A DNA stretch of 64,000 bases from Trypanosoma brucei (GCA_000002445.1 CM000207.1:2016001-2080000); one strand, 5' to 3'; positions 12,958 through 57,220 are shown, counted from the first letter of the stretch. The notes: a model not told the origin generated them from the sequence alone. Translations and numbers: made by a program.

Positions 12958-13809
12958 ATGGGATACAGGTTGTTGCGTGACAATGTCTTCAAGGCGAGTT
13001 GTGCCAAAGACTCCGACGAGCTTCGAGCGCGGCGAGAGCCGACGATGTTATACAAAGAGGATCAACTAGTTGCCCCAGCGTCAGGCACTGAGCGACGCTA
13101 TACATTGGTACTTGATTTAGACGAAACTGTAATATATGCTCGCGAGGGTCCCCTTTATGCTCGCGCATATTTGAAGGAGTTACTTTCTTTCATAAGGAAA
13201 AACTTTGAAGTTATTGTATGGACAGCCGGTGAGCGGGAGTATGCCGAATGCATCTTGGAAGAGATAAATATACGCAATACAGTTCGACACCTCATACACC
13301 GCCACAAAACTTGGTTCAGTTTTGATGATTATACGAAGGATTTGACAAAGCTCGGACGAAACTTGGACTACGTTATCATTATCGAAAATTCCCCGGACTG
13401 CGTTCGCACGAACCCACAGAACGGTATTATTGTCGATGACTTCAGAGTGAGCCAAACCCCACCCATGGAAGAAGCGGAAGCAGCATGGGAGGGAGACGGA
13501 AATAATAGAGAAAGGAAGGCTGGAAGCAGGAGCGACAGCAAAACACGACGTCAGGTGACAGATCGAACTCTCCTTCTCCTAAGGGAAGTATTAAAGGCGA
13601 TGGTAGAGAGTGGTGAAACGGTCCCTGATTTTCTTGCAAAGTGCCCGTTATTAACTCAACGGCGCGTCATAGGTTCTGACGGTAGCCAAATTCAAACATA
13701 TCATCTCGGGACCCGCCGCAAACGAGGGATACCTCAACTGTGCGCCTCATCACCTAAACGAAGGCGGGTAACGAAGGAATCGGCTCCCGGTGCCACCTGC
13801 ACGTCATAA
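12958..13809 (+). CDS. NLI-interacting factor / FCP1-like (CTD small phosphatase family) HAD phosphatase
   Basis: The product contains YTLVLDLDETVIYAR, matching the DxDxT HAD motif and DLDETLVHS of the CTDSP/NIF family. It also has VIVWTAGEREYAECILEEIN and IIIENSPDCVRTNPQNGIIVDDF. Confidence 0.85.
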   Translation: MGYRLLRDNVFKASCAKDSDELRARREPTMLYKEDQLVAPASGTERRYTLVLDLDETVIYAREGPLYARAYLKELLSFIRKNFEVIVWTAGEREYAECILEEINIRNTVRHLIHRHKTWFSFDDYTKDLTKLGRNLDYVIIIENSPDCVRTNPQNGIIVDDFRVSQTPPMEEAEAAWEGDGNNRERKAGSRSDSKTRRQVTDRTLLLLREVLKAMVESGETVPDFLAKCPLLTQRRVIGSDGSQIQTYHLGTRRKRGIPQLCASSPKRRRVTKESAPGATCTS

Positions 13810-15728
13810 ATGTTGGTCGCTGAGCGGATGGCCCACCTGAAAGAAAGAGAGAGAAGGTGGGAAGGATAAATCAGAGAGGGAGTTTTCCTCGCTGCGCCTT
13901 TACCCTTCTAATATTGTTATTCTTGATCTATATCTATTTATAAAGATATATTGCATATATATATATATATATTATTGGGGGAAAGTGACACAATTTAACA
14001 CAAAGATTAGGTGTTATGTGTCGTTGTCTCATGGAAAAGTTGCTTCGCCTCACAGTTCATTAAAAAAAAGGATGGGATTGAAGTATCTTTCCACCAACAA
14101 GTATTTAATAATAAAAGAAAGAAAAGAGGGTGTAGATTACAAAACCCGGGTGTTGAGACGAACGTGGGTACGCCTGCCTGCGCATGAGTAAACTTGATTA
14201 TACCTTCGTACACTGAGAGTTTTTGCACATGACGCTTTGTAACTAATATTGTGTTGTCTCCTCTAGCTCTCCTTCCACTTGTTCTTTAGCATATTTCGTA
14301 TGTCGCTGGATCCGGTTTGTTCGATTTTACTTTGCGAGAGTTCGATGGGGGGCTGACGTCCGCTGGCAGGGAACGTAATTGTTGAACCTGAGGAATTTGC
14401 ATTCGGTGAAACTGTTGTTGGGCGGTCTTCGCTTTCAACTGCTGTATCTTTTGGTCTGGGCCCTTGAGTTGTTTTCGTTGTTGTAAGTTGTATGGGTCCG
14501 CCCTTCGTGGGGATTTTGCCCGCTGGGAGGTTCCACTACTCGGGTTGGAGGGCTGTGACTGATCTGTGGTCGATGTGATTCCTGTTTTGGTAGTGTGTTA
14601 AGCTGGAATCCCAGGTGAGCTAAATAGGCGTTTTTCCAGTTGGTCAATCCGGTTATAAAGTTGCTGGACTTGCTTTCGTATCGCCGCCGCTTTTTTCACG
14701 TTCCTGTTCCGCGTTACGGTGGCACTGTTCCACTCGTTGGGTTTCGCTGCTTCTGTGGATAAGGTATGCTGTTATGGCTACTGCCTATGTTACGCAAAAA
14801 AAAAAAATAGCACAAAAGGTGACACAGCGGGACCGGCTACAGCGACTGCCGTTTTGCGAACTATCTGTTACCTGTGATACGGCTATATAGATCCTGTGCC
14901 TTTAAGGGTAGTGGCCCGATTGGAGATTGAAAGCGTATCTTGCGAAGTGTTTTGGGGCCTCCAACAGTTATCCTCATCGAGGTGTTAATGCCCGAAAAAT
15001 GGCGGTCACGCGCTCACACCGCGCCCACTAAAAATTCGCCGCTAGACACTAAGCGGGAAGATGCGGACCGAGCTTAAAGGAGTGTTGTGTTGTTCGAGCT
15101 AAAACAACCCTAGCGCTCTGTGTGTATCCAGTTCTTATTACTTTCTTGTTTGTGTCTTCTGCACCAATCCATCAAGTTATATAGAAGGCCATATATGCGT
15201 GGTTCATGGTTATTATCATAGGCAATCCATTCACGGTGCTCACGATATGGGTGTCTTCATCTCAAATCTCTCTGACAAACTGTCACGTTGGTAAGAAGTA
15301 TAGTCTATTCTACACCTATCAAAGAGCAGGGCGCCCGACGGTATTGTCATCACTTCGCTGGTCCAAAGATTTTGTAGTAGATAAGCTTGAGATACTGTGA
15401 GCACATAATGTATAGTGTGGTGCGGACACTCACCTCCTTTAAAGAAACTTGGCGGTATACAAGCTGTAGTCTGTGTAATATGTTTGCATTCACGGCTATC
15501 TTGTTCAGAAATATGTGCAATCTGACCAGTGATACTTTCTTTCTGCGAGATGGCTCATTGGCAGGATTGAGTGCTGAGGGAGCGGAGTAAAAGTGCCACA
15601 TTATTTTTTTTTTAATTACGTAAGTCGTTGGTGGTGATTGCTACTATAGCGTTCAGTTCTTCATTTTGTTTTTTTTCTCTTTTACCATGGCGTATCGTAG
15701 GACTCTGTTGTCAATTGCAAAAGCAATT

Positions 15729-15730
<2 letters not shown>

Positions 15731-15778
<48 letters not shown>
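15731..15778. repeat. (GTT)16 trinucleotide microsatellite
   Basis: A perfect gtt x16 run inside the strand-switch region. Confidence 0.95.
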
Positions 15779-15779
<1 letters not shown>

Positions 15780-16301
15780 TGGGGGCCACTGAATGGAGTG
15801 AAACGGCGAGTGTGCGTTTTGTGGCTTCCGCTTCTGCACTGGTTATAAGCATGGTATCATTATAGATGCTGTCAGGGTCCCATTATTCACCATAAGCATG
15901 GAAGTCTTTCGGAGATTGGGCGTCACTCACTGTAGCAAACCATCTTTATGTACTTTTATCACTAATGATAGCCATATCAGGTGATTGTTGTGTGATCGGT
16001 TCCGGGTGGAGCGACTTTCGAGGATTGTTTGTCTTAACGATCTTCCATAAATCTTTAAGGGTCCGTCGCATCGAGTTGTTGAGGATATCATCTTAGTCAA
16101 TTTTGCGGTTTTGTCACCAGTGAGTCAAGCGTCTTCGTAGCGACTTGACTGTATATACGTAACGAAGCCAATTAACACCGAGTGTAGATGCCACTGAGCG
16201 GAATTTTGACCAGAGTTTTTCGAGTTCGATTACTTTTAGCGTCCTGGGGATAGATTCGTCCCCTGTTAGATGAGCTCGTGTTCTTGTTAAAGTTCTATCC
16301 C

Positions 16302-16871
16302 CTATGTGTACGGTATGTTTGTTTCTGTCCCATTTGATGCCGATATAGCCGTATTGTCATCTATACTCCGTTTCGCCATAGGTAACACGGGTTTCTCGGG
16401 CTCTCTTGTTTGTACATTTGTATACACATCCGCGGACTTTGTGGTAGGGGGCGTAATTCGTATGTCGTGGATCCACACGTCGATGATTTTTTGGACGTGG
16501 GGGAGTAGTTGCTCGTCCGTTCGTACGATACGCGGGTCCTCGGCTAGGACTAATAACAATAACTGCATAATTTCCAGTGATCCTACATAGCCGGTAGACA
16601 GCCTCGTGAATTCGTACGCTACTCCATCTTCATCAAAAAACCCAAAGTTTATCTGGGCGCGTGTTGATAATTCATCTTGGAAGGCCGCCGCCTCAAGGCC
16701 CATTGTAAGTGCTGGTGGTGCCCATACCCTAGATAGCAACTCCTGTTTAAAATATAGGCATAAGCTCGGACAATAACCATCTGCATATACTTCATCGTTA
16801 ATTGCTTGTGGCCATAATATCATTCGCCGTTGCCATTTTTTCGCTTCAACTCCATAACGGTATTTGGCCAC
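16302..16871 (-). CDS. Orphan ORF in the strand-switch region (hypothetical, possibly a gene fragment or pseudogene)
   Basis: The 189-aa ORF has a non-repetitive, protein-like composition and contains EVYADGYC. No homology was recognised. ORFs of similar length overlap on the opposite strand, so coding status is uncertain. Confidence 0.2.
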   Translation of the reverse strand: MAKYRYGVEAKKWQRRMILWPQAINDEVYADGYCPSLCLYFKQELLSRVWAPPALTMGLEAAAFQDELSTRAQINFGFFDEDGVAYEFTRLSTGYVGSLEIMQLLLLVLAEDPRIVRTDEQLLPHVQKIIDVWIHDIRITPPTTKSADVYTNVQTREPEKPVLPMAKRSIDDNTAISASNGTETNIPYT

Positions 16872-17210
16872 GCATAGGCTATAATATAGTGTGGATCAAC
16901 CCTACCAATAATATGTGCGTCTTCCAGTTGCCGTGCATCCTCTCACCGAGGCTTGAATGCCGTCTCACATTCGATAATTATGGCATTGTCCTTGGGCATC
17001 CTTTACAGTGCGCTCCATCTTTTTTAAAAAAAAACAAGAGAAATATACACATCCGTTGTCGAAACCGAGGACACGTCCATACAATCAATTGGAAGACGTC
17101 TGCCCCTCTCCTTTTCTCTTGATTCGTCATGCTTCCGGGAGGGGGACCTATGGCTGGGCAAACCAGTTAGGAGACGGCAATCGGACGACAATATGTCATG
17201 ACATGTAATA

Positions 17211-17621
17211 TCACGCAGATGCCAGGTCCGAGTAAATCCAGTCTATGCCGTTTCCAGTGCATGGGACGCCGTTTTGCACTTCCATCATTGTCTCGTCGAT
17301 TTGGTCCAGTCGTTCGGTGATGCGAGTTCGCCCGTTTCTAAGAGACATAAGCGGTTCTTTGAGGTTGGCGAGGCGGTTTTTGACACCCTGCAATTCCTCG
17401 CAGGATATCTTAATGCCTTTAATTTGGTTAATCGTATTGGCATCCAGACGGTTGATGGATTTAACTAACTCGTCCCAGTGTCCGTGTACGACCGTATTTA
17501 GAATCTCTGGACCGACCGAGTGAGTAAGAGAGTGAACCAGTTGAGAGGTCTCGCCGACTGTGATCGACGGTCGCTTTATTTGGGTACGGCGACTCTCACG
17601 AAAGCAATAAGAAAAGTGCAA
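17211..17621 (-). CDS. Orphan ORF in the strand-switch region (hypothetical, coiled-coil-like)
   Basis: The 136-aa ORF has heptad-like content (INQIKGIKISCEELQGVKNRLANLKEPLMSLRN). No homology was recognised, and overlapping plus-strand ORFs make it ambiguous. Confidence 0.2.
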   Translation of the reverse strand: MHFSYCFRESRRTQIKRPSITVGETSQLVHSLTHSVGPEILNTVVHGHWDELVKSINRLDANTINQIKGIKISCEELQGVKNRLANLKEPLMSLRNGRTRITERLDQIDETMMEVQNGVPCTGNGIDWIYSDLASA

Positions 17622-19523
17622 AACGCATATTCACATTCAACGGCTCGCGTTGGCCGGAAAATTCTGGAGGGAACGCAGTTTGTCAGCACGTAGTTAACGT
17701 GCGGGGGGCGGTGCTGTGCGAACTGTGCTTATGATGCTTTATAAAATGATATAAACCAGGCGAGATCTGCATTCATGAAGACCGTCTGTTTCCGGATCGT
17801 GGGGTAGCCGGCGTGTGTGGTGGATGGAACCCTGACCCGCGCGTGGGAAGGCGGTGCAACGCGACCAGATCAAGCAGCTTGCGGGCGTTGCTGACTAATA
17901 GTTGTTAAGAGGCAAACCTGTTGGTTTGGAGGACTTTGGGGCGCACCCGGGTGGAGATGTTTCAGATGCGGAAGGGTTGGAAGAGTTGGAAGGGAGATGC
18001 GAATCCATCATCTTACGCGAAGTGGGAGGCACGAAAAGGAAGCACGGCAACTGTAGCAAAAGCAACGTGAATGCCAGTGGTGTGTTTGCGTTGTTTCCGC
18101 GGCGCTGGAAAGAGTGCAAAGACCGGAAAAATAGAGTTGCGGTTCATGTAAAACCGTATGCGTGCAATGCCCGGTAGTGAAGCAGGATTTAAGAAAAAAA
18201 AAGAGAGATAAACATGCGGGGAGGAAGTTTACGAGTTCAACATGTGAAAGGTGTTTCGTAGCAGGGGCTCTGATAATGCACATCAACCTCGTGAATATGC
18301 ACGGCCCCGTGGCACCGCTAAAGGGACTACGAGCAGTGGAGGGAAAGTGGAGTTAGCCGTAGCCGCGCCGGTGTTGAAACCAAAATAAAAAAAAAGGATG
18401 ACATGGAGGTAACAGTTAAGGAAGGAGAGGATAGAGAGAACAGGGTGGGGTTGGAATAAAATGTTCCTAGTAAACTTTTGATGTTCACGGGGCACGTGGG
18501 ACTCCAAAGAGTAAGGAGAGGTGCGCACTTAAGGCACACACAAGAAAAATGCATACTGAATCCGATTGCGCGCTCCGAGGGGTTTCCTGACGCTTTTATA
18601 AGGAAGTGGAAAGTGTGAAGTGAAACCCACCAGTGCCCCATACTGCGGCTAAACGTAAGCGAGGCGAGTTGGTCTAAAAGGTTTAGTAGGAAGTACACAC
18701 GGCGATGGAAAGAAGGACGTTTACAACAAATTGAAGTTGGGCATCCAAGGATTGCTGAGCCACTTGCCCGAATGCACTGCCGTGGAGAAGCTGAAGATGA
18801 AGCATGAACTAATAGGCTTGACGAAGAAAGTGTCTGATGGGTTCTCTGCCTGTGCTCCCCAGCAGAGAAGGCCCAGACGAATAGAGAAAAAAAAACTCAG
18901 CGAAAAAGAAATTCAATCTAAAAAGAGAAGGGGGTTATCTTCTCACAGGGGGAATACCGACCATCGGAATTGCCACCTTTGGAGTTTTTTTTTGTTAAAA
19001 AAGGGATATAAATATTCTCTTATCTTTGAATGCAGCATTGCCTTTGAGAACTTGAAGAAAAAAAAAGTAGCGAAAGAGGTATTTCAGTTCTTTGCGAAAA
19101 CACAAGTATGTAAGAAAACTCAAGTGCGAAGAGGCCAGTGGTGACAAACACACATATGAAGACCATAAAATTAAGGCTCCTTGTCATCGTGTTCAAGTAC
19201 GGCAAAACAGTTGCTTGCTGATACGTTTACTATTTAAAAATAAAAACATTTTCTTTTTTGCAAAAATAACACAACTACTGCTAAGAAGGTAAACAAGCTG
19301 TTTTACGGGCGTGTCGTCCCTCTGCCGGCATTCCAAACCCTCAAACGAATATTTTGGTTAGAAGGAGCGAATACGCGGCGATGGGATGTATGTCTTTTGA
19401 AAATAAATAAAAAAAAATAAAGAAGTTAAGTGCACACTAGTGCTTTGGAAAAAAAAAAAAATAATAACAATAATAGTAAAAGGATCAGAAAATAGTCCTC
19501 ATTTACATATCCAACACGCACCG

Positions 19524-20093
19524 TTATGACATCATTAACATCGCGGAAACTAAGAGCAGCAATGGAACAACGTTTGTGCTTAACGATGCCGCCAACACCT
19601 CTGTGCCACCTCCATTGGACTCACACTCTCCACCGTCTACGCACGTGTCGGTCTTCGTTACTTCCGTTACATCTTCGGGATCTTCGATGTCATCCTTCTG
19701 CAGGCCATCATCATCACTTTTGACAGCAGGGCTTTTTGTGTCAACATTTGTTCCCTCAACTGCTCCTTTGGTGCCTGAGTTCCCCCCATTCCCCTCTTGA
19801 AGGTTGTTGTCATCACTTTTGTTGGTCGGACCTTTGGGTTTGGCACCTGCTTCTTCATCACTTTTGCTGCCATCGGGATATTCCATATCTTTCTCATACG
19901 GGATGCTGGCCTCCTCCTCTTCTTCTTCTTCTACGTCAGGCGGATCCTCAATGTCTCCTCTACTAACGCCAGGATTGTTGAGGAATTTATTCACCAGCCC
20001 TGCTGCTGCCCCCTTTGCTTCCACTTCTCCATTTAAAAGAGAGCCATTCATGAGCATCGCAACCAAGTATGCCAAAAGAGCCGTTAGCCTCAT
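19524..20093 (-). CDS. Small acidic secreted or GPI-anchored-type protein (candidate surface protein)
   Basis: The 189-aa ORF has an N-terminal signal-peptide-like segment (MRLTALLAYLVAMLMNGSLLNG) and a D/E/G/K/N-rich low-complexity core with an EEEEEEE run. The C-terminal hydrophobic tail (AASLSTNVVPLLLLVSAMLMMS) resembles a GPI-attachment signal. Codon structure looks coding. Confidence 0.45.
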   Translation of the reverse strand: MRLTALLAYLVAMLMNGSLLNGEVEAKGAAAGLVNKFLNNPGVSRGDIEDPPDVEEEEEEEASIPYEKDMEYPDGSKSDEEAGAKPKGPTNKSDDNNLQEGNGGNSGTKGAVEGTNVDTKSPAVKSDDDGLQKDDIEDPEDVTEVTKTDTCVDGGECESNGGGTEVLAASLSTNVVPLLLLVSAMLMMS

Positions 20094-20842
20094 CTATTCT
20101 TTTTTCTCTTTTTTTTCGCGTCCCAATGTTGCCTTATCTTGATTTAATTATTTATTTTGAAATAAATACGGGGAGAGCACACCAGGCATTTATATCGAAG
20201 GAATGCTCCCAGAAAAAGTTGGTAACTATCAATGTGAGGCTGTATCAAAAGCAATGTTTGTCCAACCCAAAGGTTTGGTACGATTTGGACAAACTTCCGC
20301 CCCTCCGCTATGCTGAGTTTGTCTCCCACATTCCGTGGGGAATGGACCAGGCCGTGATGAAACTACGGCGGTTCCAGAACCCCCCCCCAAAGGGAAAATG
20401 TTACGGATGCAGCCTCTTTTTGTGTAAAATGTGAAAAAAGTTTTTCGAAAACATGCTTTGAAAGACGATATATGGTTGCGAATTCTCTCCCCCTCCCCCC
20501 CCCCAAAAGACCACATTAACCCTTCGCAGCTGGTCAAATACTCAGGGGTAACTCGTCGTCTTCCCCAGTGCATGCGTTTGCGCGTGTCGGCAGCTGTGGC
20601 GGAGCGTCGATGTCCCTAGTGGGTGCTCGCGTGGCTCAATGCGGAGGTGGGGATAAGACCGCATGATGCGGGAATGTAAGACTCTGACTGGGGACATCAT
20701 TATAAACAACCCTCCCCTCCATGCCTTCAAAAAACGCAAACAGGGTTACACCTCCAACGCCCATGTCGCAAACGAAGGAGCGAAGCCTTGCTGATTTCGG
20801 TTCCAGGAACGATACCATACAAATTTTTAGTGTTGACGCGCG

Positions 20843-20913
20843 GCGCAGTTGGTCTAGTGGTAGAATTCTCGCCTGCCACGCGGGAGGCCCGGGTTCGATT
20901 CCCGGACTGCGCA
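20843..20913 (+). tRNA. tRNA-Gly(GCC): tRNA-Gly (anticodon GCC)
   Basis: The sequence is GCGCAGTTGGTCTAGTGGTAGAATTCTCGCCTGCCACGCGGGAGGCCCGGGTTCGATTCCCGGACTGCGCA. It folds as a cloverleaf with a 7-bp acceptor stem (GCGCAGT/ACTGCGC), a D-arm, an anticodon stem CTCGC/GCGGG with loop CTGCCAC (anticodon GCC), and a T-arm GGGTTCGATTCCC. The body from the D-loop to the T-arm matches what I recall of the eukaryotic cytoplasmic tRNA-Gly-GCC. Discriminator is A, with no encoded CCA. Confidence 0.93.
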
Positions 20914-20916
20914 TCG

Positions 20917-20921
20917 TTTTT
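20917..20921 (+). terminator. RNA polymerase III oligo-T terminator of the tRNA-Gly gene
   Basis: A TTTTT run begins 4 nt after the tRNA 3' end (gcaTCGTTTTTctg). Confidence 0.7.
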
Positions 20922-21657
20922 CTGCCGCATGCAGAACCCACCATTTTTTTTTACTTATTTTGGAACGAACTTGCTATTTTTTTTTGTTTGGTTGCTGTTG
21001 TTTGTTTGCCATCATTTCGCTACGGTGACGATAATTCCCCGCCACGCTTTGTCTCCACATTTGCAAAACTTACGCTAACGGAGGGTGCTGTAGAAATATG
21101 AGCGTCCCCCGGAGGCACCGCAAGTCCGCTTGGTACATCAAACCTCAGAGACGAGAAGGGACGAAACTCGTTTAGACCCGATGTTGGTCGGAACGGGCCA
21201 TTCACACAGGTTTCACCGTCGCCGACCCAGCTCACCATACAAAACTACCCCTCCCGCTTAACATCCACGGACACCGAGACGCTCATATGATAATAACTAC
21301 GATTTCGCAGTTGCTGTTTCACAGCGTGTATGAACTGTTTCAAACCACACACGCCAAATGACGCGACACAACAAACTAATAAACACACAGTAAAAAAAAT
21401 GAATGAGCATCCAACTGCGCAAATTCATTGATAGAGAACGCCTGTAAACAAAACCACAAACAATGCAGCCATGTCCACACTAGAAGCGTATAGCACTGTT
21501 ACCTCTCACTAAAGTGTTAAACGGGAACTGCAGCTGCTGCGCTACAGAGTCGATAGTCACAGCGTCCCTCGGTGTTTGCATCCGGAGAGATGATGACGGG
21601 AGGGAACCATTTCCAGCTTCTTTTTCCCACTTCTTTTTTTTTCAGGAGCTTGTAACG

Positions 21658-22050
21658 CTATGCACTCTCTCCGGAGCGTCGCGAGACCTCCAATTCCTCC
21701 TCAACGGTGTCCACATCGAACCCAAGACCCCTCATTTCCTCAAGGTACCGTTGCGTTGGATCACCACTGGCGTCCATTGCTTCTTTTCGTGAGCGCTGCC
21801 TCCGCATGGCATACCCGAAGGCGGCCACACCACCGCCAAACACAAAAAATGCACGCAAGCCGCGCCACGCCAATCCCCGGAGAATCTGTGTGTTTTGCTC
21901 AAAGCACTCCGAACCAATCTTCTCCGCGATTCGCATATTCTGCCGCGTCCGCTCATCAAGCCCCAACGGCGGTTTTTCACCACCACCACCACCATCCCCG
22001 CTCATTGCCATACGCCAAGCTGAATGCGTTTCGGCTAAATAATTCCACAC
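21658..22050 (-). CDS. Small hypothetical membrane protein (single glycine-zipper transmembrane helix)
   Basis: The 130-aa ORF runs with the minus-strand array; the probable start is the internal Met (MAMSGDGGGGGEK). It has a Gly-rich N-terminus, one helix (GLAWRGLRAFFVFGGGVAAFGYAM) and a charged C-terminus. A polypyrimidine tract lies on the minus strand about 100 to 140 nt upstream. Overlapping antisense ORFs add uncertainty. Confidence 0.3.
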   Translation of the reverse strand: MWNYLAETHSAWRMAMSGDGGGGGEKPPLGLDERTRQNMRIAEKIGSECFEQNTQILRGLAWRGLRAFFVFGGGVAAFGYAMRRQRSRKEAMDASGDPTQRYLEEMRGLGFDVDTVEEELEVSRRSGESA

Positions 22051-41515: not shown

Positions 41516-44500
41516 CGTGAACTAATGTTTTAATAAACTGAAAACAATACGCCGCCAACCACCGTGTACCACTCCCAGTATGGAAAGAACTTGAAACAAG
41601 CCGTCAAGGCAGTGCGTGGCCGTGTGAGAGGGTGGATGTAACAACGTGTTGACGCAAGAATAAAAAAAAAAAAAAGAGCGCCACACCCGCATGACACGAA
41701 TGATCAGATGAAGAAAAATAGAGAAAAAGGTGAAGAAAAACAAACATACAGTATAACTCATATATAGAGATGATTACATATATAGATACATATATAGACA
41801 TAGGTAGATACAGTTTTAAATGGTGATTTGTATAGCAATATTTGTATATTGTTGCGTACAAAGCACAACATATGACAGTCGTGGGTGCACACACGTCAGT
41901 ACTTTATTCAATCAGTTTTTAGTCACTATCACTGTTGAACATCACGCAATCAAGCAAGTACGCATAAGCACACATATATATATATATATGCATTATTAGT
42001 GGGGGAATATAAATATATGTATTTATGTTTCCTTTCCTTTCCTTCCTTTCTTTTTTTCTTTGTTTGTTTTTTCCTCTTTCCTTTTCTTCTGTTTCTTTCT
42101 CAATATATATATATATATGTGTGTGTGTGTAATCAAATGCGTGTAAAAGTTATTTCAAACACACACATACCGGTACATGTGTCCGTATCATATCTCATTT
42201 AGTTCGCACCTCCCACCCTCGCTCATAGCGACAGAAAGAAAGTGAAAAAAAAAATGAGAATGTATGAATAAAAAAGGGAAAGGGAAAGAGAAAGCAACAA
42301 CAGAAACATAAAAAAGGGGGAAAAAAGAAGTACATATAAAAACATACGCGCAGGTTTTACGCCATCGGTGAGGTGGAAATTAAATTTTTGCAGGTTCCTT
42401 CCTGTCCCTTCTGAGGTAACTGCATGAGAGTGTATTTGTCTTCTTTCTTTGAATATCAGAAGGAGATTGTAATAATAATTATAAAAACATCAGTCAATAA
42501 CAATAATGGTAATAGTAGTAATTCGAAAGTATTTTAACATACGAAACAAAACACAAAAGTAAAAAAGTAAAAAAAAAAACAAAGACCGAATATTGCAAAC
42601 ATTGCGTAAAGTCATGCGCGCACGATCATTTTAAATACCTCTTCCCTTCTTCGTTTATGCTTTTCGTCAATCTCTTTTTTTTTTATTCCATTCTTTTTAT
42701 TTCCCACCTCCGCTTTCGTCCCCTTATTTGATTTTTTTTTTGCGTTTCTACTTTTTATAATTGCTCTACCTACGTCCCCGTTTACTTTTTTAGTTATATT
42801 TGTTGTTGCCTTTAGCGTAAATTTGTTGCTTCTGGTTGAAAAGGAAAGGGTAAAACTTAGCCCCACTTTTAAAAATATTTTTGTTCTTGTTCTCGTTGTT
42901 CTACTGCCTTCGTATTCATTCATGCATTCGTTTATTTATTTATTTAAATATTTAATAATATATCTTTCCTTTTCTTTTATATTTGCCCAAGATTAAAAAC
43001 ACGACACATCTACCCGCACTTCTACACATGCCTTCTCCTCAAATCCGTACAAATTAGGGAGAAATTGTGTGCGTAAATATATATATATATATATTACATA
43101 AATAGTAATAATAATACCGTGATTTAAGTAATGACAATACTGAGAATAATTTTTTTTTGTTTTTACGCGTACGAATCCGCTGTTGTGTGTAACATTTTAT
43201 TTATTTATTTATTATCTCTCGTATCTCCTCTCACCTCACGATTCCCCGATAAAAAGAAGTAACTAGCGTCTCCTTTTCTAAAAAAAAAAAAATTGTACTT
43301 GTGTGCCTTGCTGTCTTTCTTTCGTGTTTCGTTTTCAATTTTTTGTTGTTGTTGTTTTTTTCGCTTCGGTTGGGTTCCTCTCATTTATTATTTACTGATT
43401 TTTTTTTGTTTCCTTTTCGAAACTTGAACACTCCGTCTTTTTCTTTTCTTTTTTTTTCTTCCATTTCAATAGAAAAAGTTTCAAAAGGTCGAATATATAA
43501 TTAAACATTAAAACATTTATTTGAATATATCATTTCGACACGACACAAATTTATTTCCACTTTGTTACTAAACTCACCTTCATTGTAATCCACAACTTCC
43601 ACTTCTTTTTACACCTTTAACTCACTTATCATTCAATTTTTCGCTTTCTTTTTTCCCCTTCGCCCATTATTTATTTTTTTAAAATAATCACTGAGTTGAG
43701 ATCGACTGTTTGTCATTTCACTGCTGAGTTTTTGCTTCTTTTTTTTTCTTTTTTCTTTTTAAAGAATCTCGTTTTTGTTGATTTTTAGCCATTGCGTTTC
43801 CGTTCACATACATCCATATATATATATATATATATATATATTATTTATTTATTTATTTTCGTGGAAGAAGATGACGAAGAGTAAAATAGAGCAATTGAGG
43901 GGACGAGCGTCGAGGGACGGTAAAGCCAGACACGATGAATAAACAAACAAACAAACACAAAAACTAATATAACGAATAAAGCGAACCGAAAACAAACAAA
44001 AATTGAAGAAAACCAAAGAAAAGCAACGACAACAACTGGAATGATGATGCAACGAAGGCAAGTCACGATATACTTCAAACTGGGAAAAAGTAGAAAAACG
44101 TGTTAAACCAACAGGATGAAGGTAAAAGTGAACGGGTAGGAAAGAGAAAGATTTTTTTAAAAAAAAAAAGACAAGAACGAAGGAGATGAATAAACCATAA
44201 ACAAACCGCAAATAAAAGGGAGTGTTGCTGAAGAACGGCAAGAAAAAAAAAAGAGAGATAAAAAGCAAAAAGATTGAACGAGGTAAGGGTAAAATAGAGA
44301 AAATCAACAACGGTGGGTGTATACAGGCACACTGAAAAAAGGTTGAGGGAGGAAAGAAATCGCAAACGCAACAGTAAAAAATCGCGATAAAGTTAAACAA
44401 AGGAAAGAACAACAACAAAGGTCACAGAGAAAGCGACAGAGCATGGAAAAAAAAAACAACAACAAAAATAAAATAATAATAATAATAAAAAGCAAGACTG

Positions 44501-47500: not shown

Positions 47501-50264
47501 ATGGGTAAACTGTCTTGCGACACAGAGATACATCCTGCGATAGCTGCGAAACTGCACTCATGGCTTTGGTCAGCGGCACACAAGTCACACGCTGCGATGT
47601 CATCAGCGATTCAACAAAGGGCAAGTTGCTGATAAGACAAAGGGCAGAAACTAAATTTTCGATTAACGCCTCCACACCACGTGGATACTCGGCCATTAAT
47701 TGTAAGAAACATTTGAGACGATCTTTCTGGCAGAGCCGTTTAAGTTGATCAGCGATACGCACACCCCCAAAAGTTGCTGGGTCGGTTCCTGTGTCAACCG
47801 TAAGGCCCGGGACAACTCCCTCACTTATCAACGCACCGGAAGATTCAGCAGCGCAAGTCGCCCCTATCTCCTCATTTGTATCATACTCGTCTCCTCCAGT
47901 GTTCGACATTAATAGATAGCCCAACACCGCATCCGCAATACCCATTTTAGATATCTCAAATGCTGTTATATTTCCCGACGTTTTCTCCATAACCCTCAGT
48001 ACTTGTGCCACTACCTTCTGGTGCGTTCCAAATACCATAGTTTGCTTTCTCAGTTCTTGCACTGACTCCCAAAGGGCTGTAACACAACCTACATGAGACC
48101 GGGCCGAAGGGGGAACTGAGTTTTCACTCATCTCTTTCTCCACAGTTGACAGTATCGCACGAACCATCGCCATTAAGTGCATCGTTCGGTTCTCGGGTCC
48201 CTCCAGCTTGACTTTTGGTACCATCCGACGAATTTTACCATCTTGATCATCTGCCTGTCGATCATCCAGCCTTTTGCATTTCGAATTGGCCAAATTTTCC
48301 AACTGCTTCACTACGCCGCATCTATAAGCCGTCTCTGCCGCTTTCCACTCTGATGACCCTGGGTGGCGAAGAAGCCACACCATCATCGTGAGAGCCACGG
48401 ATTTCGTTGCCTTGTCAGCCGAAATGAGTGCGGTGCGAAGCATGTCACACAACGGACGCATTGTCTTGCGCAACAGTTCCGTAAGTTGCTGGGGTTTCTT
48501 GGCCAATATCGCTGCCTGAAGCAGAGCCGCGCAGGCACACACGCCCAGTTGCATAGCCATTGATCCCGACGCCCAGGTTGCATATTTGCATAGACTCTCA
48601 AGATACATCTCCGCGATCTTCATGGATGCGGCTGGAACTGGCGCGCTGTTGTTGAGAACATAGTAACGACACAACTCCGACTCACGCCTGTTTACTAGTT
48701 TGTCCATACCAGAAGAAATTGGCACTCCTATATTTTCTTCTGCAGAGTTTGCTATGTATTCAACAACACCCGTGACATCCTTCGCTGCTTTCACAGATCG
48801 TATATCTGCTTCATTCATCACATGAAAGACAAAGGGGACGAATTTGCGTGAAATATTGAGCTCAGCACCTCCAAATCCGCTGCAGATCTTCATTGTTGCA
48901 AGATTCGCAGTTAGTATCTTTGAGTGTATCCTAAGCGTCACCTCTTTTGTACGACGAGCCAAGCAAGTTTCCAGCGTCACACAAGCCTCCTCCGGTATGG
49001 GACTGTTATGCCGCATTTCATCTTCCCACATCCATTTGTGCACAGGAAGAACTACTTTGGGCTTTGGCCCAAAAGCCTCACTGGGAAGTGGGGGGGATGC
49101 CAAAATAAAGTGACGTATGGCAGCAATGGAAACAATATGATTTTTATCGCGCCGATGTGCGGCCCGTGATATGCCACCAACAGGAAAAGGGTCGGACAGA
49201 AGCATTGTAATGCTCGGGTCTGAGTCATCGAGTACAATTCCATAAAAAGCCCGCGCTTCCTTGGAAAGAAGCATATCACTCACATTAACCCAATCTGCCG
49301 TAAGGATAATGTCTATCATCGTTTCCGAGAAGAGAAGACGCTCAGAGCGCACGGAAGGGTCAAGTGCGACGTTACCATCATTTAACAAAAGAAGTCGGTA
49401 AAGACATCGGCAGAGCTCCGATGTTATCATTCTCTGCGCAGATGAAAGGCGGTTGAAGAGCACAGCCCGTCGTATGAGCATGCCGAGACACTGCAATGCC
49501 AACTCCAACAACGACCATGAGTCTGGCGATGATTCAAGACTTGACGCATACTGCTGAATCATACCTTGCAAGAACGGCACAAGAATGTGGTCCGTAGTTA
49601 CTACAGATGGCTTGACGCAAGGTTTATTTTCCTGTTGTTCATCTTTAAGGGACTTGCAGCAGGAGAATAAGGATACTACACTGCTGAAGAATTTCCTCTT
49701 CCTCGTTTCTGACGGTAGTACAACCTTGGAGCAAACGGCTAAAAGAACGTCGAGAGCCTGTCGCGTAAGTAGGGCGTTCTCATACTGTGCAGTCTTGGTG
49801 ACATCTCTTAAGCCAAGGTGTACTAAGGAAACGCTACTTTCATCCAGCGTGACGAACCGAATAAGCCGGAGGACCTCCTCCATCAGCATGACGCGATCCA
49901 AGTTGCTGAAGCGCATCTCCCGACTATGAACACGTGCAAGAACTTCCGTTGCTATACGTACAAGGCGCTTGTGGTATGGATGCACTCCACAATACGAAGT
50001 GGGGACATGTTCCATTATGAGTGAAAGTGCGCGAAAGATCATCGTCAAGGCATCGCCAGCCCTAAAAAAGCGCTCACTCTCCGCCATGTGTACTAAAGTC
50101 GGTACCACCCTCATTGAATCAAATCCACGTAAATAAACCTCTACACCCATTACGAGAGACATGCACATATCCTCCAGTGCACCAACCACTCTCTCAGGGT
50201 CTTTGCTCAGATGTTGAACCGCCTTAATTTGCTGCTTGGAGTCCACCACTAGCTGTCTTGACAT
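44526..50264 (-). CDS. HECT-domain E3 ubiquitin-protein ligase (giant, about 1912 aa)
   Basis: The C-terminal HECT lobe has the catalytic-Cys context VNTCFRYLKMPPYPTEELMYNKLQLSIMYAGDTFELS (canonical HTCFNxLxLPxY...). There is a long helical ARM/HEAT-like N-terminal region and an internal Cys-rich zinc-finger-like block (CESCEEQLETGFGCNVCNYFLCVSCH). Confidence 0.85.
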   Translation of the reverse strand: MSRQLVVDSKQQIKAVQHLSKDPERVVGALEDMCMSLVMGVEVYLRGFDSMRVVPTLVHMAESERFFRAGDALTMIFRALSLIMEHVPTSYCGVHPYHKRLVRIATEVLARVHSREMRFSNLDRVMLMEEVLRLIRFVTLDESSVSLVHLGLRDVTKTAQYENALLTRQALDVLLAVCSKVVLPSETRKRKFFSSVVSLFSCCKSLKDEQQENKPCVKPSVVTTDHILVPFLQGMIQQYASSLESSPDSWSLLELALQCLGMLIRRAVLFNRLSSAQRMITSELCRCLYRLLLLNDGNVALDPSVRSERLLFSETMIDIILTADWVNVSDMLLSKEARAFYGIVLDDSDPSITMLLSDPFPVGGISRAAHRRDKNHIVSIAAIRHFILASPPLPSEAFGPKPKVVLPVHKWMWEDEMRHNSPIPEEACVTLETCLARRTKEVTLRIHSKILTANLATMKICSGFGGAELNISRKFVPFVFHVMNEADIRSVKAAKDVTGVVEYIANSAEENIGVPISSGMDKLVNRRESELCRYYVLNNSAPVPAASMKIAEMYLESLCKYATWASGSMAMQLGVCACAALLQAAILAKKPQQLTELLRKTMRPLCDMLRTALISADKATKSVALTMMVWLLRHPGSSEWKAAETAYRCGVVKQLENLANSKCKRLDDRQADDQDGKIRRMVPKVKLEGPENRTMHLMAMVRAILSTVEKEMSENSVPPSARSHVGCVTALWESVQELRKQTMVFGTHQKVVAQVLRVMEKTSGNITAFEISKMGIADAVLGYLLMSNTGGDEYDTNEEIGATCAAESSGALISEGVVPGLTVDTGTDPATFGGVRIADQLKRLCQKDRLKCFLQLMAEYPRGVEALIENLVSALCLISNLPFVESLMTSQRVTCVPLTKAMSAVSQLSQDVSLCRKTVYPSSSGNPCRRGVSHDRGRNQPCSSLKSGDIPSSTPSQRAVSQRGSKLTVRESCPNGHLLLSLEMIAPKRSCESCEEQLETGFGCNVCNYFLCVSCHSHFITSRDGGATGRRSSSFNGVAAGAPDTVVQPKSRVNVATSAHLFSSIGDIERTFRTDSNSTKGTEVAPCPQSTLAAEVFLERVQLVLSRKKETMSYVELRQELQRLIDGFIAQRETIESLDELDAHNKKTPVDLEEPSRLERMLHDAMEDRYVLYTSPTGRCAYQETLMGNIMQRALNLGLVDVVGQLESCLVTPESHGEPLNLGGGEKGLSKTLLLLRGDIVNGEVPPSATEDKEHITSWQLNRFHHFESDAHTHCCCGLRSREELNTAYPSKLVRKPSHLSQSPDVLLLILLHKILQPLMVANTIPINPDVFVSAILTTQLVKSVAASALRIALLPPRIAVPRWVDFILTEAKFLVPPSVREDVVRFLAYGARRALHANIRSSMGSRRYRMYKVYPSEWSKYENHKYVVSRNDLLHGAYMVLRKGAECRAPISIQFKGEVGIGQGPTAHFYTLIARELTKCRLRLWNNSSRSSTTHESGDSCGNRQLRSKSNSGTFDDEQRVESRPEGLFPCSSVPKVLQRFSTDLSLSSCRDTKALTERFLCMNDFFEVDEERAQLYYLVGTVLGRAFTDAVVFPLDISPALALFLCRGIPPSRIVLRCTEKEEQPWEPERPIDFMSLGIEEVEMMDKQVASSLRSLLSMSSKELSSLDLPFTMPGDDRFEMIDKGQSTCVNSTNVSAYIRRAASALLYESVVMPIRFITYGFRDVVPCEALAALDASEAMSLLCGNRIRDSEPLWTAAEIKSIIVPDHGYNSESPQITMLQNILAKRFGPREQRAFLLFCTGCPRLPHGGISALGAITVVQSTHMPTLPDASHTEGNGKDGSNGGRKGGDRSRRISRTGNGTKAVGIDWPLPSVNTCFRYLKMPPYPTEELMYNKLQLSIMYAGDTFELS

Positions 50265-52517
50265 CGTTCCGCCAACTGATAATAAATTTTTTAAAAATCA
50301 CAATCACCACTGCTTTGATAATATTCACAACAGCAACAACAACAGTAGCAGGGTGAAAATATGCACCACGAACAAACGATCGAACACGCCCCAAAACTAT
50401 AATACGAGTTGTATCAAACAGAAGGGAAGTCGAATCTTGTAGGGAGAAGAAAAATAGAATCGAATGTATATATAAATCAATATATATATATCAATATATA
50501 TATATATAATGATAAAAGATAGATAGATACTTGAGGTAAGTATATTTATACCTATCTATATCTAAAATATATGAATATATATTTAGAGATATATATTCTC
50601 TTTGTTGTTACTACAGTAGTTTGTGAAAAAAGGGTACGTTAATACAAGTATAGATGTTTAAAATGTCAATTTAAGAAAGAAGAAAAAAAGGAAAGGAAGC
50701 GCGAGGTACGTTAGAATATGAAATAAGAAATTTGTGGATATTTAAGCAATGAGTGACACATTGTTACTTTAATTATTTCAAAAAAAAAAAAACAGCCTAT
50801 TATTAGTATTATTTTCAAAGGACCCAGAGGAAATGTCCACATATATATATTTATTTATTCATAATTCCCCCTTACCGACCTTAATAATAATAATAATCAT
50901 CTGCATCATGAACATGCGCATCACCTCCAATATATATATATATATATTTGAAAGTTTTATTAATAGTGTTTGACCACCAGCGACGTTTTTCCACCAAAAA
51001 GAGGTGACTGTAGGATTCTTTTTTTTTTCGTTCCATTTTATTGAAAACCTTACACCTTTGCCTTCAAGATGTGCTACTGCTACCATTTAAGTGTTGGACA
51101 AGCAAAAAAAAAAAAAAGAACTAATGACGATGGAGGAAAAAGATGAGAAAAAATAAAGAAAGAAAGAAACAGCAAAAAAAATAATAATTAGATATAGAGA
51201 ATGAATTTAGGAATGTTTTGATAGTAAAATGCACAGCTGAAGTAGTTAACAGAAAAATGTAGCCATGCATCAAACCACCCGGTTGATAAATGGATATCGC
51301 AAAAGTCCAATATTTTTCTTTTCCTTTTTCATTGTAGATATATATTTTTTCTTATATGAATAAATATAAATATATACTTTATGTTTATATTTCTTATATT
51401 TATATATTTCACTGCCGCTACAACCACACTTTTTAAGAGCAAAAAAAAAAAAATCTCACAGTCATTTCTTTATCTCCTCCCTCGCTTCCTCACTCACATG
51501 CTTCATCATTCCTCGTGTCATTATTGTTACCACCTTTTCTTCTTCGTTTCCTCCCTCTTATCACTTGTCGACATTTCAACCAATTAATGAAAGCACATGC
51601 GCACAAAGGGAAGTAAAAATTTTAAAAAAAAACAATAATTTTTTTTTTTAAAAAGGAGCAAAACACAAATAAGGGCTAACGAGAGAAGAAAATAAATGAA
51701 GATGACGGCAGTTCCCTTCGTTAATGTATGGAACATACCTCAACAATAGCAATAATGAACACATGAATGAATGAGCAAAAGGGGTTCGGTACCCCAGCGT
51801 GGAGAGCGACAAGTAACAATTTCGAATAGAGGTGAGGAAAGGAAAAAAAAAGGGAAAACGGGGAAGAATGAGACGGTAAAGCACAAATAATAAATGAAAA
51901 CAGCATCGGAAGCAACAACACCGAGTAGAAAACACTATAAAATAAAACACAAAATGATAAGCATGTCGTTGGTCTTACAATTGAAGTCAAACCATAAAAT
52001 GTGCATGTGTTCGTCAGTGAAAACCCCCGCACATGCGACCCGCACCCTTTTATATACCCACCATCCCTCACAGAAACCGACATGAATAAAGGCGGTACGA
52101 ATAGAAAGAGAAAGGAAGAGAGAAATATGAAAAGCAAGTAAGAGGGGGGGAAAAGGCAGTTAAGCGCAGCGAAACTCCTGAGGAATAACAAAAAGTAAAC
52201 CAAACGTGTCCAATTCGCTCATCTCTTCCTCTCACTCTCTTTATTCTTTTTTTTTCTTCTCACGGTTGTATGACATGAGTCTCTAGACATGATACAAAAG
52301 AGGGCAAACTGTGGGCAGTAAAGAAGAGAGGGGACGACACTCATCAGGTTGTCAAGCAAAGGACCGTTAGCAATTTCCTTCCCTTTTCCTTTTTTCCCTT
52401 TTCCCCTTTTGTGGGTGTACACCTACAATACCGGACAAAAACAAAAGAAAACAAAAACAGCACGTGCAAGAACACGAGCTCTACAATATATGAAATACCA
52501 TTACCAGCAATGGTTCC

Positions 52518-55570: not shown

Positions 55571-55601
<31 letters not shown>

Positions 55602-56770: not shown

Positions 56771-56776
56771 ACACAT

Positions 56777-56822
<46 letters not shown>
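56771..56822. repeat. Compound (AC)n(AT)n microsatellite
   Basis: acacatacacacacacacacacacatatatatatatatatatatatatatat. Confidence 0.9.
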
Positions 56823-56825
<3 letters not shown>

Positions 56826-57183
56826 CCGTCAAGCAGGAGAGAGGGGGAAGAAAGAAAAAAAAAAGATAAACAAAAAGTGAAAGCAAAAATAAAAATAAAA
56901 GTGAAGCTTAATTCTTTTTTTAAAAAAAAAAAAGAAATTAAACAAATAAACCACCCAATTCATTCATTCATTCAGTGGCAAAAGGATAACCCAATTACAT
57001 ATAACATATGGAATATAATATATAATATATAATGCGAATGAACGGGTAGTAATGGCATGTGACTGTGTATATATGTGCAAAAATCAATGAGCGAAAACAA
57101 CTGAGTAAAAAAAAAAGAAAAAAATGAATGAGTGACGAGTAATGGGAGGGGGATAGAAAAAGGAGCGGTAATAACAATACAAT

Positions 57184-57220
57184 AGTAATAATAATAATTA
57201 TTATTATTATTATTACTATT
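57184..57220. repeat. (TAA)n(TTA)n palindromic trinucleotide repeat
   Basis: agtaataataataattattattattattattactatt, which is self-complementary and could form a hairpin or cruciform. Confidence 0.85.

What the first reader, a model, noticed from the sequence alone, without database searches (positions are those of the whole stretch)
19524..20093. Candidate small acidic GPI-anchored or secreted surface protein at the end of the minus-strand array
The ORF has a cleavable signal-peptide-like N-terminus and a very acidic, low-complexity D/E/G/K/N-rich core with an E7 run. It ends in a hydrophobic tail of GPI-signal type. This is the architecture of trypanosome stage-specific coat or surface proteins, for example procyclin, BARP or GARP-like acidic GPI proteins. 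It sits beside a strand-switch region and a tRNA, a location where lineage-specific genes often reside.
Basis: inference. Interest (0 to 1): 0.6.

Follow-up and report, generated by a model that had tools for sequence, protein, structure and literature searches.

The report
Acidic midgut-stage trypanosome surface-protein candidate
The ORF is the annotated but uncharacterised Trypanosoma brucei gene Tb927.9.13200: a small, very acidic, probably disordered protein with secretion and lipid-anchor signals at its ends, found only in the T. brucei group and switched on in the tsetse-midgut stage through the same RNA-binding-protein switch (RBP10) that controls the procyclin coat.

Summary
The ORF at 19524-20093 (-) is real and matches the description. 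It has an N-terminal hydrophobic segment, a core of pI ~4 containing an E7 run, and a 15-residue hydrophobic C-terminus. It is the only one of 51 ATG-ORFs in the window that passes both end-signal rules, and none passed in 200 shuffles. It is identical to T. brucei TREU927 Tb927.9.13200 (old ID Tb09.211.4070), annotated "hypothetical protein" or "T. brucei spp.-specific". Exhaustive searches found no homologue outside Trypanozoon and no Pfam or PDB match. Published data tables show a real, stage-regulated mRNA. Reads per million in tsetse are 32 (stumpy), 366-559 (midgut), 224 (proventriculus) and 82 (salivary gland). The mRNA is bound by RBP10, rises 4-fold on polysomes after RBP10 RNAi, and is 15.8-fold higher on procyclic than bloodstream polysomes. 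Two UA(U)6 motifs in its 3'UTR are conserved in all five genomes. The best reading is a lineage-specific, disordered, acidic, GPI-anchored minor surface protein of midgut procyclic forms. It resembles procyclin in design but is not related to procyclin, BARP or GARP. GPI anchoring and surface location remain predictions from hand-written rules. In T. vivax, T. melophagium and T. theileri a DHHC gene follows the conserved 117-aa gene; the T. brucei window has no DHHC there and carries tRNA-Gly, this gene and another orphan ORF instead. Moderate interest.

The parts
19524..20093 (-). CDS of Tb927.9.13200 (old ID Tb09.211.4070), 189 aa plus stop
   Evidence: ORF list and sequence. 100% identical to XP_827549.1 / Q38DA1_TRYB2. 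The TREU927 3'UTR printed for Tb927.9.13200 in PMC5568443 supplement file 1 matches the window downstream of the stop, and the CDS length is given as 570.
20016..20093 (-). Predicted signal peptide, aa 1-22 or 1-26 (MRLTALLAYLVAMLMNGSLLNG|EVEA|K)
   Evidence: Hydropathy and charge rules. The candidate cleavage sites G22|E23 and A26|K27 come from the -3/-1 rule applied by eye. AlphaFold2 models a helix over residues 2-38. Not tested with SignalP.
19590..20015 (-). Acidic, low-complexity, probably disordered core, aa 27-168 (pI 4.05; one N-X-S sequon at N91; C151 and C157 near the membrane end)
   Evidence: Composition. The AlphaFold2 single-sequence model has no secondary structure over residues 39-164, with pLDDT 45-60. 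No Pfam or PDB match.
19911..19931 (-). E7 run (E55-E61)
   Evidence: Invariant in three Trypanozoon alleles.
19932..19955 (-). Motif DIEDPPDV (aa 47-54), first copy of an internal repeat
   Evidence: Matches DIEDPEDV at 7 of 8 positions. Only 5 of 1000 shuffles of the core reach 7/8.
19668..19691 (-). Motif DIEDPEDV (aa 135-142), second copy. The KSDDxxLQ motifs at 19797-19820 and 19698-19721 form a second, weaker pair.
19527..19589 (-). Predicted GPI-attachment signal removed after omega = A168 (ASLSTNVVPLLLLVSAMLMMS, 21 aa)
   Evidence: Small residues at omega and omega+2, a short polar spacer (LSTN), and a 15-residue uncharged hydrophobic tail that ends at the stop codon. Invariant in all alleles. 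Not tested with PredGPI or big-PI.
19173..19523 (-). Annotated 3'UTR (about 351-352 nt)
   Evidence: Sequence printed in PMC5568443 supplement file 1, identical to the window.
19456..19463 (-). UA(U)6 RBP10-binding motif 1
   Evidence: The paper counts 2 motifs. Conserved in four other Trypanozoon sequences.
19412..19419 (-). UA(U)6 RBP10-binding motif 2
20843..20913 (+). tRNA-Gly(GCC) on the opposite strand, 750 nt upstream of the ATG, followed by a T5 run
   Evidence: ARAGORN. Rfam 59.2 bits. T-run. This is locus chr09-I of PMC2695483.
20380..20504 (-). Two G-runs on the sense strand (G9 at 20380-20388, G10 at 20495-20504) between the tRNA and the ORF. They may mark a Pol II restart region (inference only).
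   Evidence: The link to transcription start sites rests on my recollection of T. brucei chromatin-mapping work and was not tested.

Best explanation
Tb927.9.13200 is a single-copy gene restricted to the T. brucei group (Trypanozoon). Shown by published data: its mRNA is low in bloodstream and stumpy forms and rises about 12-16-fold in procyclic forms. In the fly it peaks in the midgut and falls in the proventriculus and salivary glands. RBP10 binds the mRNA, which carries two UA(U)6 motifs in its 3'UTR. Removing RBP10 from bloodstream forms raises the mRNA on polysomes, and forcing RBP10 expression in procyclic forms lowers it. This is the same repression mechanism that silences EP procyclin. 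Inferred from sequence: the N-terminal signal peptide takes the protein into the ER, where it is cut after about residue 22-26. The GPI transamidase then replaces the last 21 residues with a GPI anchor at A168. The mature product would be a polypeptide of about 142-146 residues with net charge about -25 and no folded domain. It would sit on the outer membrane leaflet as a minor, negatively charged component of the midgut procyclic surface coat alongside the procyclins.
For: The ORF and its end signals are confirmed, and it is the only ORF in the window with both signals, against 0 in 200 shuffles. Gene identity is established. The reading frame is intact, without indels, in five Trypanozoon sequences, and both end signals are conserved apart from M15V. 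The core is probably disordered. The PCF/BSF mRNA ratio is 12.8. The mRNA is increased in procyclics grown in proline-based medium relative to published data for glucose-grown cells. It is RBP10-bound, with about 24-fold enrichment in the pull-down table as I read unlabelled columns. On polysomes it rises 4-fold after rbp10 RNAi, falls to 0.46 with RBP10 expression, and has a PC/BS ratio of 15.8. Tsetse RNA-seq gives stumpy 31.7, midgut day 3 365.6 (padj 1e-11), midgut day 28 558.9, proventriculus 224.1 and salivary gland 81.7 RPM. The UA(U)6 motifs are present and conserved.
Against: There is no protein-level evidence. I found no proteomic detection or localisation in the supplement text held for TrypTag, the differentiation proteome or the cell-surface phylome, although those files are truncated or limited. 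The signal peptide and GPI site rest on my own rules, not on trained predictors. The spacer between the omega site and the tail is short (4-6 residues). The gene is an orphan with too little variation to demonstrate purifying selection (2 synonymous and 4 non-synonymous differences). The protein has many lysines, so unlike procyclin it is not obviously protease-resistant.
Confidence: 0.62

Rival explanations
1. The protein enters the secretory pathway but is not a GPI-anchored coat component. It might be secreted, held by its C-terminal hydrophobic segment as a membrane span, or confined to the flagellar pocket, endosomes or lysosome, as some procyclic acidic membrane proteins are.
For: The spacer between the best omega site and the hydrophobic tail is short. 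Residues 166-189 together form a moderately hydrophobic stretch of about 24 residues, which AlphaFold2 models as one helix (165-187). No experimental GPI evidence was found.
Against: The hydrophobic segment runs to the last residue, with no charged cytoplasmic tail, and its strongly hydrophobic part is only 15 residues. By general knowledge, that arrangement combined with an N-terminal signal peptide is typical of GPI signals rather than type I anchors. The TriTrypDB column in PMC8483307 lists 0 TM domains.
Confidence: 0.2
2. It is a young orphan ORF with no selected protein function. The transcript is real and is regulated through its U-rich 3'UTR, but the product is unstable or irrelevant, and the signal-like ends are fortuitous.
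For: No homologue exists outside Trypanozoon. The region downstream of the conserved 117-aa gene differs in T. brucei from the other species examined. pN/pS of about 0.4-0.6 rests on only six differences. The sequence is low-complexity and purine-rich, and other reading frames are also open. No protein-level record was found.
Against: The frame is intact, without indels, in five genomes although it contains a GAA/GAG run, while the flanks do carry indels. Both hydrophobic ends occur together, which was not seen in 200 shuffles or in 50 other ORFs. The mRNA is polysome-associated and its polysome loading responds to RBP10. mRNA levels in midgut forms are high (366-559 RPM).
Confidence: 0.13
3. 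It is not a gene at all: a chance ORF inside the UTR of a neighbouring gene or in untranscribed strand-switch DNA.
For: It lies downstream of a tRNA gene near a convergent strand-switch region, among several ORFs annotated as 'unlikely', namely Tb09.211.4080 and Tb927.9.13230.
Against: It has its own annotated 3'UTR, its own read counts and strong stage regulation that differ from what a neighbour's UTR would give. It is annotated in four independent genome projects.
Confidence: 0.03

Closest known systems
EP/GPEET procyclins (PARP) of T. brucei
   Same: A small secreted protein with an N-terminal signal peptide, a strongly acidic unstructured body and a C-terminal GPI-type signal of about 21 residues. 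It is expressed in tsetse-midgut procyclic forms. Like EP procyclin mRNA, its mRNA is an RBP10 target carrying UA(U)6 motifs in the 3'UTR.
   Different: It is single-copy and lies among ordinary protein-coding genes on chromosome 9. To my knowledge, procyclin genes are in RNA polymerase I units on other chromosomes; PMC5568443 states that they are Pol I-transcribed. mRNA levels are far lower than procyclin: EP2 has a PC/BS ratio of 199.5 against 15.8 here. The protein is lysine-rich, so probably not trypsin-resistant.
BARP / GARP (Fam50 alanine- or glutamate-rich GPI proteins of African trypanosomes)
   Same: Acidic, GPI-type, insect-stage surface proteins of African trypanosomes that are specific to particular lineages.
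   Different: No Pfam family is matched. Those proteins are larger and, to my knowledge, helical, whereas this one is modelled as coil. BARP mRNA peaks in the salivary glands, whereas this mRNA is lowest there among the fly stages.
Small GPI-anchored mucin-like proteins of insect-stage T. cruzi and the putative surface protein families of T. theileri
   Same: Short, low-complexity, lineage-restricted proteins with conserved signal-peptide and GPI ends and a rapidly evolving middle. At the equivalent end of the same gene array, T. melophagium carries ORFs with a signal-peptide-like start, an E/K-rich body and a GPI-like end, and T. theileri carries Peptidase_M8 (GP63-type) genes.
   Different: There is no detectable sequence relationship. 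It is not Thr/Ser-rich. It is single-copy rather than part of a large family.

Membership tests
Procyclin / PARP family | Tandem Glu-Pro dipeptide or GPEET pentapeptide repeats forming the body of the protein | tested here: not met
   The sequence shows an E7 run but no EP or GPEET array. Tandem Repeats Finder reports nothing inside the ORF.
Procyclin / PARP family | Sequence similarity to procyclins (the Pfam PARP model, or pairwise comparison) | tested here: not met
   The Pfam scan at E <= 10 returned 0 families. BLASTP against EP1, recalled from memory, gave E = 28.
Procyclin / PARP family | Procyclic-stage expression with repression in bloodstream forms through a 3'UTR U-rich element bound by RBP10 | tested here: met
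   Motifs at 19456-19463 and 19412-19419. RBP10 binding and response are reported in PMC5568443. Midgut peak.
Procyclin / PARP family | Location in an RNA polymerase I procyclin expression unit | tested here: not met
   The gene lies in an array of ordinary housekeeping genes on chromosome 9, including a cytochrome P450 reductase and DRBD9. Which polymerase transcribes it was not measured.
BARP/GARP (Fam50) | Sequence membership (a Pfam GARP model, to my recollection) and a helical, alanine-rich fold | tested here: not met
   No Pfam hit. Alanine is 15 of 189 residues. AlphaFold2 shows coil between the two terminal helices.
BARP/GARP (Fam50) | Expression peak in epimastigote / salivary-gland stages | tested here: not met
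   81.7 RPM in salivary glands against 558.9 in the midgut.
GPI-anchored proteins (generic) | Cleavable N-terminal signal peptide | tested here: inconclusive
   A rule-based check is positive: one basic residue, a 13-residue uncharged hydrophobic region, and small residues at candidate -1/-3 positions. No trained predictor was available.
GPI-anchored proteins (generic) | C-terminal signal made of a small omega and omega+2 residue, a polar spacer, and a hydrophobic tail reaching the C-terminus without a cytoplasmic tail | tested here: inconclusive
   A168/S170, the LSTN spacer and a 15-residue tail satisfy my rules. It is the only such ORF in the window. The spacer is at the short end of the usual range. 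PredGPI and big-PI were not available.
GPI-anchored proteins (generic) | Biochemical demonstration of the anchor | not testable with these tools
   No experimental report was found.
RBP10 regulon | UA(U)6 in the 3'UTR, physical binding by RBP10, and de-repression on RBP10 loss | tested here: met
   The motifs were verified in the window and are conserved. Binding and response come from PMC5568443, Table 1 and supplements.

The most novel reading that the evidence does not exclude
Tb927.9.13200 is a genuine, so far overlooked GPI-anchored component of the established-midgut procyclic coat. It arose in the T. brucei lineage at a remodelled end of a transcription unit, where other trypanosomes carry a DHHC gene and their own lineage-specific surface genes. 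It was recruited into the RBP10/UA(U)6 procyclin regulon and contributes measurably to tsetse midgut colonisation. That would make it one of the non-procyclin GPI proteins whose existence is implied, from my knowledge of the literature, by procyclin-null parasites still completing the fly cycle while GPI-transamidase mutants colonise poorly.
Probability: 0.15. Interest if true: 0.65.

Novelty: new member of a known kind. Interest (0 to 1): 0.38.

Why it matters
The procyclic surface is usually described as procyclins plus free GPIs. Procyclin-null trypanosomes can still be transmitted (Vassella 2009, title seen), so other surface molecules must matter in the fly, and few are catalogued. This gene is T. 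brucei-group-specific, encodes a GPI-type acidic protein, peaks in midgut forms and is controlled by the same RBP10 switch as procyclin. That makes it a concrete and cheap candidate for knockout, tagging and tsetse infection experiments. It also illustrates two broader points. A young orphan gene has been wired into a developmental post-transcriptional regulon. And the ends of trypanosome transcription units appear to be places where lineage-specific surface genes accumulate. The gene itself is already annotated and appears in published omics tables, so the new content is its interpretation, not its existence.

Tried and rejected
1. Homology. The Pfam scan, the word-indexed search of 5.8 billion proteins, the full phmmer scan of 1.84 billion representatives and the PDB sequence search found only the gene's own 90%-identity cluster. 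No paralogue or distant family emerged.
2. Direct comparisons. tblastn against the syntenic loci of T. vivax, T. cruzi, T. melophagium and T. theileri also found nothing.
3. T. congolense. Synteny in this nearest outgroup could not be examined. Its NIF orthologue (P0022) has no contig on record, and its CPR orthologue did not appear.
4. Selection test. Only six variable sites are available, so the result is uninformative.
5. Protein-level evidence. The held supplement text of TrypTag, the cell-surface phylome and the differentiation proteome does not contain the gene ID. These files are truncated or few, so this is absence of information, not evidence of absence.
6. Old gene ID. A full-text search for Tb09.211.4070 gave no papers. 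The new ID was found by prefix search and verified through the printed 3'UTR.
7. The Logan contig L004 looked as if it might be a cDNA carrying a spliced leader. Its first 64 nt match neither the locus nor, as I recall it, the spliced leader. It is probably a chimera at an A-run.
8. The 103-aa and 104-aa ORFs annotated downstream in T. b. gambiense were considered as real genes. The 103-aa ORF is only 64% identical at protein level between subspecies although the DNA is about 98% identical. It is therefore probably not a gene.

Full report
**Observation**

The window carries an ATG-to-TAA ORF of 189 codons at 19524-20093 on the minus strand. Its product starts MRLTALLAYLVAMLM: one basic residue followed by 13 uncharged hydrophobic residues. 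Residues 27-168 have pI 4.05, with 38 D+E against 13 K+R and GRAVY -1.13. An uninterrupted E7 run spans E55-E61. The protein ends ...EVLAASLSTNVVPLLLLVSAMLMMS, and the last 15 residues are uncharged, strongly hydrophobic and run to the stop codon.

I wrote simple rules for a signal-peptide-like start and a GPI-signal-like end. Of the 51 ATG-ORFs of at least 100 aa in the window, only this ORF passes both. No ORF passed both in 200 composition-preserving block shuffles.

tRNA-Gly(GCC) lies at 20843-20913 on the plus strand, 750 nt upstream of the ATG.

**Identity**

The protein is 100% identical to T. brucei brucei TREU927 "hypothetical protein Tb09.211.4070" (XP_827549.1, Q38DA1_TRYB2) and to T. 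equiperdum TEOVI_000341300. The T. b. gambiense orthologue is annotated "T. brucei spp.-specific protein".

The current ID is Tb927.9.13200. The TREU927 3'UTR printed under that ID in supplement file 1 of PMC5568443 (chromosome Tb927_09_v5.1, reverse strand, 352 nt) is the sequence immediately downstream of the stop codon in the window. The CDS length is given as 570. The neighbouring 429-aa RRM protein is DRBD9, Tb927.9.13280. The ORF overlapping the tRNA is Tb09.211.4080, "hypothetical, unlikely".

**Homology**

There is no Pfam family at E <= 10 and no PDB relative. The 5.8-billion-sequence search returned a single 90%-identity cluster of three Trypanozoon alleles. A full phmmer scan of 1.84 billion cluster representatives returned only the protein itself. 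The gene is therefore a single-copy orphan of the T. brucei group.

The three alleles differ at four positions (M15V, G107D, D118E, D128V), and both hydrophobic ends are otherwise invariant. At the DNA level, five sequences show six variable sites (two synonymous, four non-synonymous). There are no indels despite the GAA/GAG run, while the flanks do contain indels. pN/pS is about 0.4-0.6, but there are too few sites for it to mean anything.

**Structure**

An AlphaFold2 single-sequence model gives a helix over residues 2-38 and a helix over 165-187. Residues 39-164 are coil apart from one three-residue helical turn, at pLDDT 45-60. A single-sequence model is weak evidence, but together with the composition it indicates an intrinsically disordered acidic body.

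Two short motifs recur. DIEDPPDV and DIEDPEDV match at 7 of 8 positions, and only 5 of 1000 shuffles reach that. KSDDNNLQ and KSDDDGLQ match at 6 of 8. This hints at old internal duplication. The mature part has one N-X-S sequon (N91), and two cysteines (C151, C157) lie close to the predicted anchor.

**Expression (from the literature)**

- Fadda et al. 2014 (PMC4285177) list a PCF/BSF mRNA ratio of 12.8. They name the gene among mRNAs of unknown function that are specifically increased in their proline-cultured procyclics compared with published data for glucose-grown cells.
- Mugo and Clayton 2017 (PMC5568443) list it among 31 selected RBP10 targets. The mRNA is bound by RBP10. [quoted passage not shown] The polysomal PC/BS ratio is 15.8, and the 3'UTR carries two UA(U)6 motifs. 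The same table contains EP2 procyclin and two trans-sialidases.
- I located the two motifs at 19456-19463 and 19412-19419. Both are conserved in T. equiperdum, T. b. gambiense, T. b. equiperdum and a Logan contig.
- Naguleswaran et al. 2021 (PMC8483307) give fly-derived values in RPM: stumpy 31.7, midgut day 3 365.6 (log2FC 3.06, padj 1.1e-11), midgut day 28 558.9, proventriculus 224.1 and salivary glands 81.7.
- Toh et al. 2021 (PMC7952579) list the transcript as uniquely down-regulated in the AMPK-alpha2 RNAi line of their RBP6 differentiation system.

The mRNA is real, has its own UTR, is loaded on polysomes and is specific to the midgut stage.

**Mechanism**

The shown steps are stage-specific mRNA abundance and polysome loading under RBP10/UA(U)6 control. 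The inferred steps are:
- ER entry through the signal peptide, with candidate cleavage at G22|E23 or A26|K27;
- GPI transamidation at A168, with omega+2 = S170, spacer LSTN and a 15-residue tail;
- display of a disordered polyanion of about 142-146 residues on the procyclic surface.

The lack of any residue after the hydrophobic tail, and the tail's length of only 15 residues, argue for a GPI signal rather than a transmembrane anchor. That argument rests on general knowledge, and no trained predictor was available. I put 0.62 on the GPI-anchored surface protein reading. I put 0.20 on another secretory fate, 0.13 on a functionless young ORF and 0.03 on "not a gene".

**Genomic setting**

Plus-strand genes run to 13809 (a NIF-type phosphatase), and minus-strand genes run from 64000 down to 24445 and beyond. 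Along the minus strand the order downstream of the P450 reductase is:
- a 165-aa coiled-coil gene;
- a 117-aa membrane-protein gene;
- tRNA-Gly, on the opposite strand;
- Tb927.9.13200;
- a 173-aa ORF (16305-16823) annotated in two subspecies.

The ORF is thus near the end of the array, not strictly at it.

In T. vivax the order is CPR, 200 aa, 109 aa, a DHHC palmitoyltransferase, then the convergent NIF gene. T. melophagium and T. theileri also have the DHHC gene after the 117-aa orthologue. The T. brucei window has no DHHC remnant. None of the other loci examined has a tRNA.

After the DHHC gene, T. melophagium carries ORFs spread over three reading frames. The first starts MLIQLRRVVYLLVLLQCCLGVSVASAGE. 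The last is E/K-rich, contains an E6 run and ends DGSSSPALLHSPLLLLVLMCVLGCTLVC. T. theileri carries three Peptidase_M8 (GP63-type) genes there. These ORFs are not detectably related to Tb927.9.13200.

Two G-runs on the sense strand (G10 at 20495-20504 and G9 at 20380-20388) lie between the tRNA and the ORF. From my recollection of T. brucei chromatin maps, internal Pol II start regions often follow tRNA genes and are G/GT-rich. That idea was not tested here.

**Comparison with known families**

The gene works like a procyclin in architecture, stage and RBP10 control, but it is not a procyclin. It has no EP or GPEET repeats, no similarity, a different genomic setting and much lower expression. 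It is not BARP or GARP either, having no Pfam match, no helical alanine-rich fold and the wrong stage. I file it as a new member of the general kind [quoted passage not shown].

**Novelty and score**

The gene has been annotated since the 2005 genome and appears in several omics tables, always as "hypothetical" or "unknown function". I found no paper that discusses its protein. The new content is the combined reading: GPI-type acidic disordered protein, midgut peak, RBP10 regulon, and lineage-specific birth at a remodelled end of a transcription unit. A specialist would find this plausible and useful rather than surprising. Interest is 0.38.

Noticed in passing
window 13809-21660, compared with L005 12100-16800, L008 12400-16800 and L009 12500-22088: In T. 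vivax, T. melophagium and T. theileri a DHHC palmitoyltransferase gene follows the orthologue of the 117-aa gene. The T. brucei window has no DHHC remnant there (tblastn). It carries tRNA-Gly, Tb927.9.13200 and a 173-aa orphan ORF instead. No tRNA is present in the other loci examined.
   Followed up: partly
L008 15658-16789 (+), T. melophagium: Directly after the DHHC gene there are three ORFs in different reading frames. The first has a signal-peptide-like start, and the last is E/K-rich with an E6 run and a GPI-signal-like end. This may be one frameshifted or pseudogenised surface-protein gene at the equivalent end of the array. It has no similarity to Tb927.9.13200.
   Followed up: partly
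L009 15790-22088 (+), T. theileri: Three Peptidase_M8 (GP63/MSP-type) genes occupy the same end-of-array position after the DHHC gene.
   Followed up: no
window 16305-16823 (-): A 173-aa ORF annotated in T. b. gambiense and T. b. equiperdum. It has no Pfam match and no tblastn match in the T. vivax, T. cruzi, T. melophagium or T. theileri loci. It may be a second Trypanozoon-specific gene at the end of the array.
   Followed up: partly
window 20380-20388 and 20495-20504 (-): G9 and G10 runs on the sense strand lie between tRNA-Gly and the ORF. They may mark a Pol II restart region after the tRNA.
   Followed up: no
L004 1-64 (Logan contig ERR7929162_9048): The first 64 nt of this 960-bp contig do not match the locus in the window or in L003. 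The junction lies in an A-run 19 nt upstream of the ATG. The sequence is not the spliced leader as I recall it, so the contig is probably an assembly chimera.
   Followed up: partly
window, whole: The motif TATTTTTT occurs 22 times against 6.4 expected from shuffles (maximum 14). The copies are concentrated in the AT-rich intergenic/UTR stretches at 51-58 kb.
   Followed up: no
window 42001-44000, 50001-52000 and 54001-58000: Long AT-rich stretches (GC 0.30-0.33) lie between minus-strand genes. They are presumably long UTRs or intergenic regions.
   Followed up: no
window 15729-15778: A perfect (TTG)16.7 microsatellite lies in the convergent strand-switch region.
   Followed up: no
L006 12110-22044, T. 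cruzi: About 10 kb separates the P450 reductase from the orthologue of the 165-aa gene, and only one small 98-aa gene is called in that stretch. In the other species the two genes are adjacent.
   Followed up: no
window 18330-18641 (-), compared with L002 11449-11760: The 103-aa ORF annotated in T. b. gambiense is only 64% identical at protein level to the window's translation, although the DNA is about 98% identical. It is probably not a real gene.
   Followed up: partly
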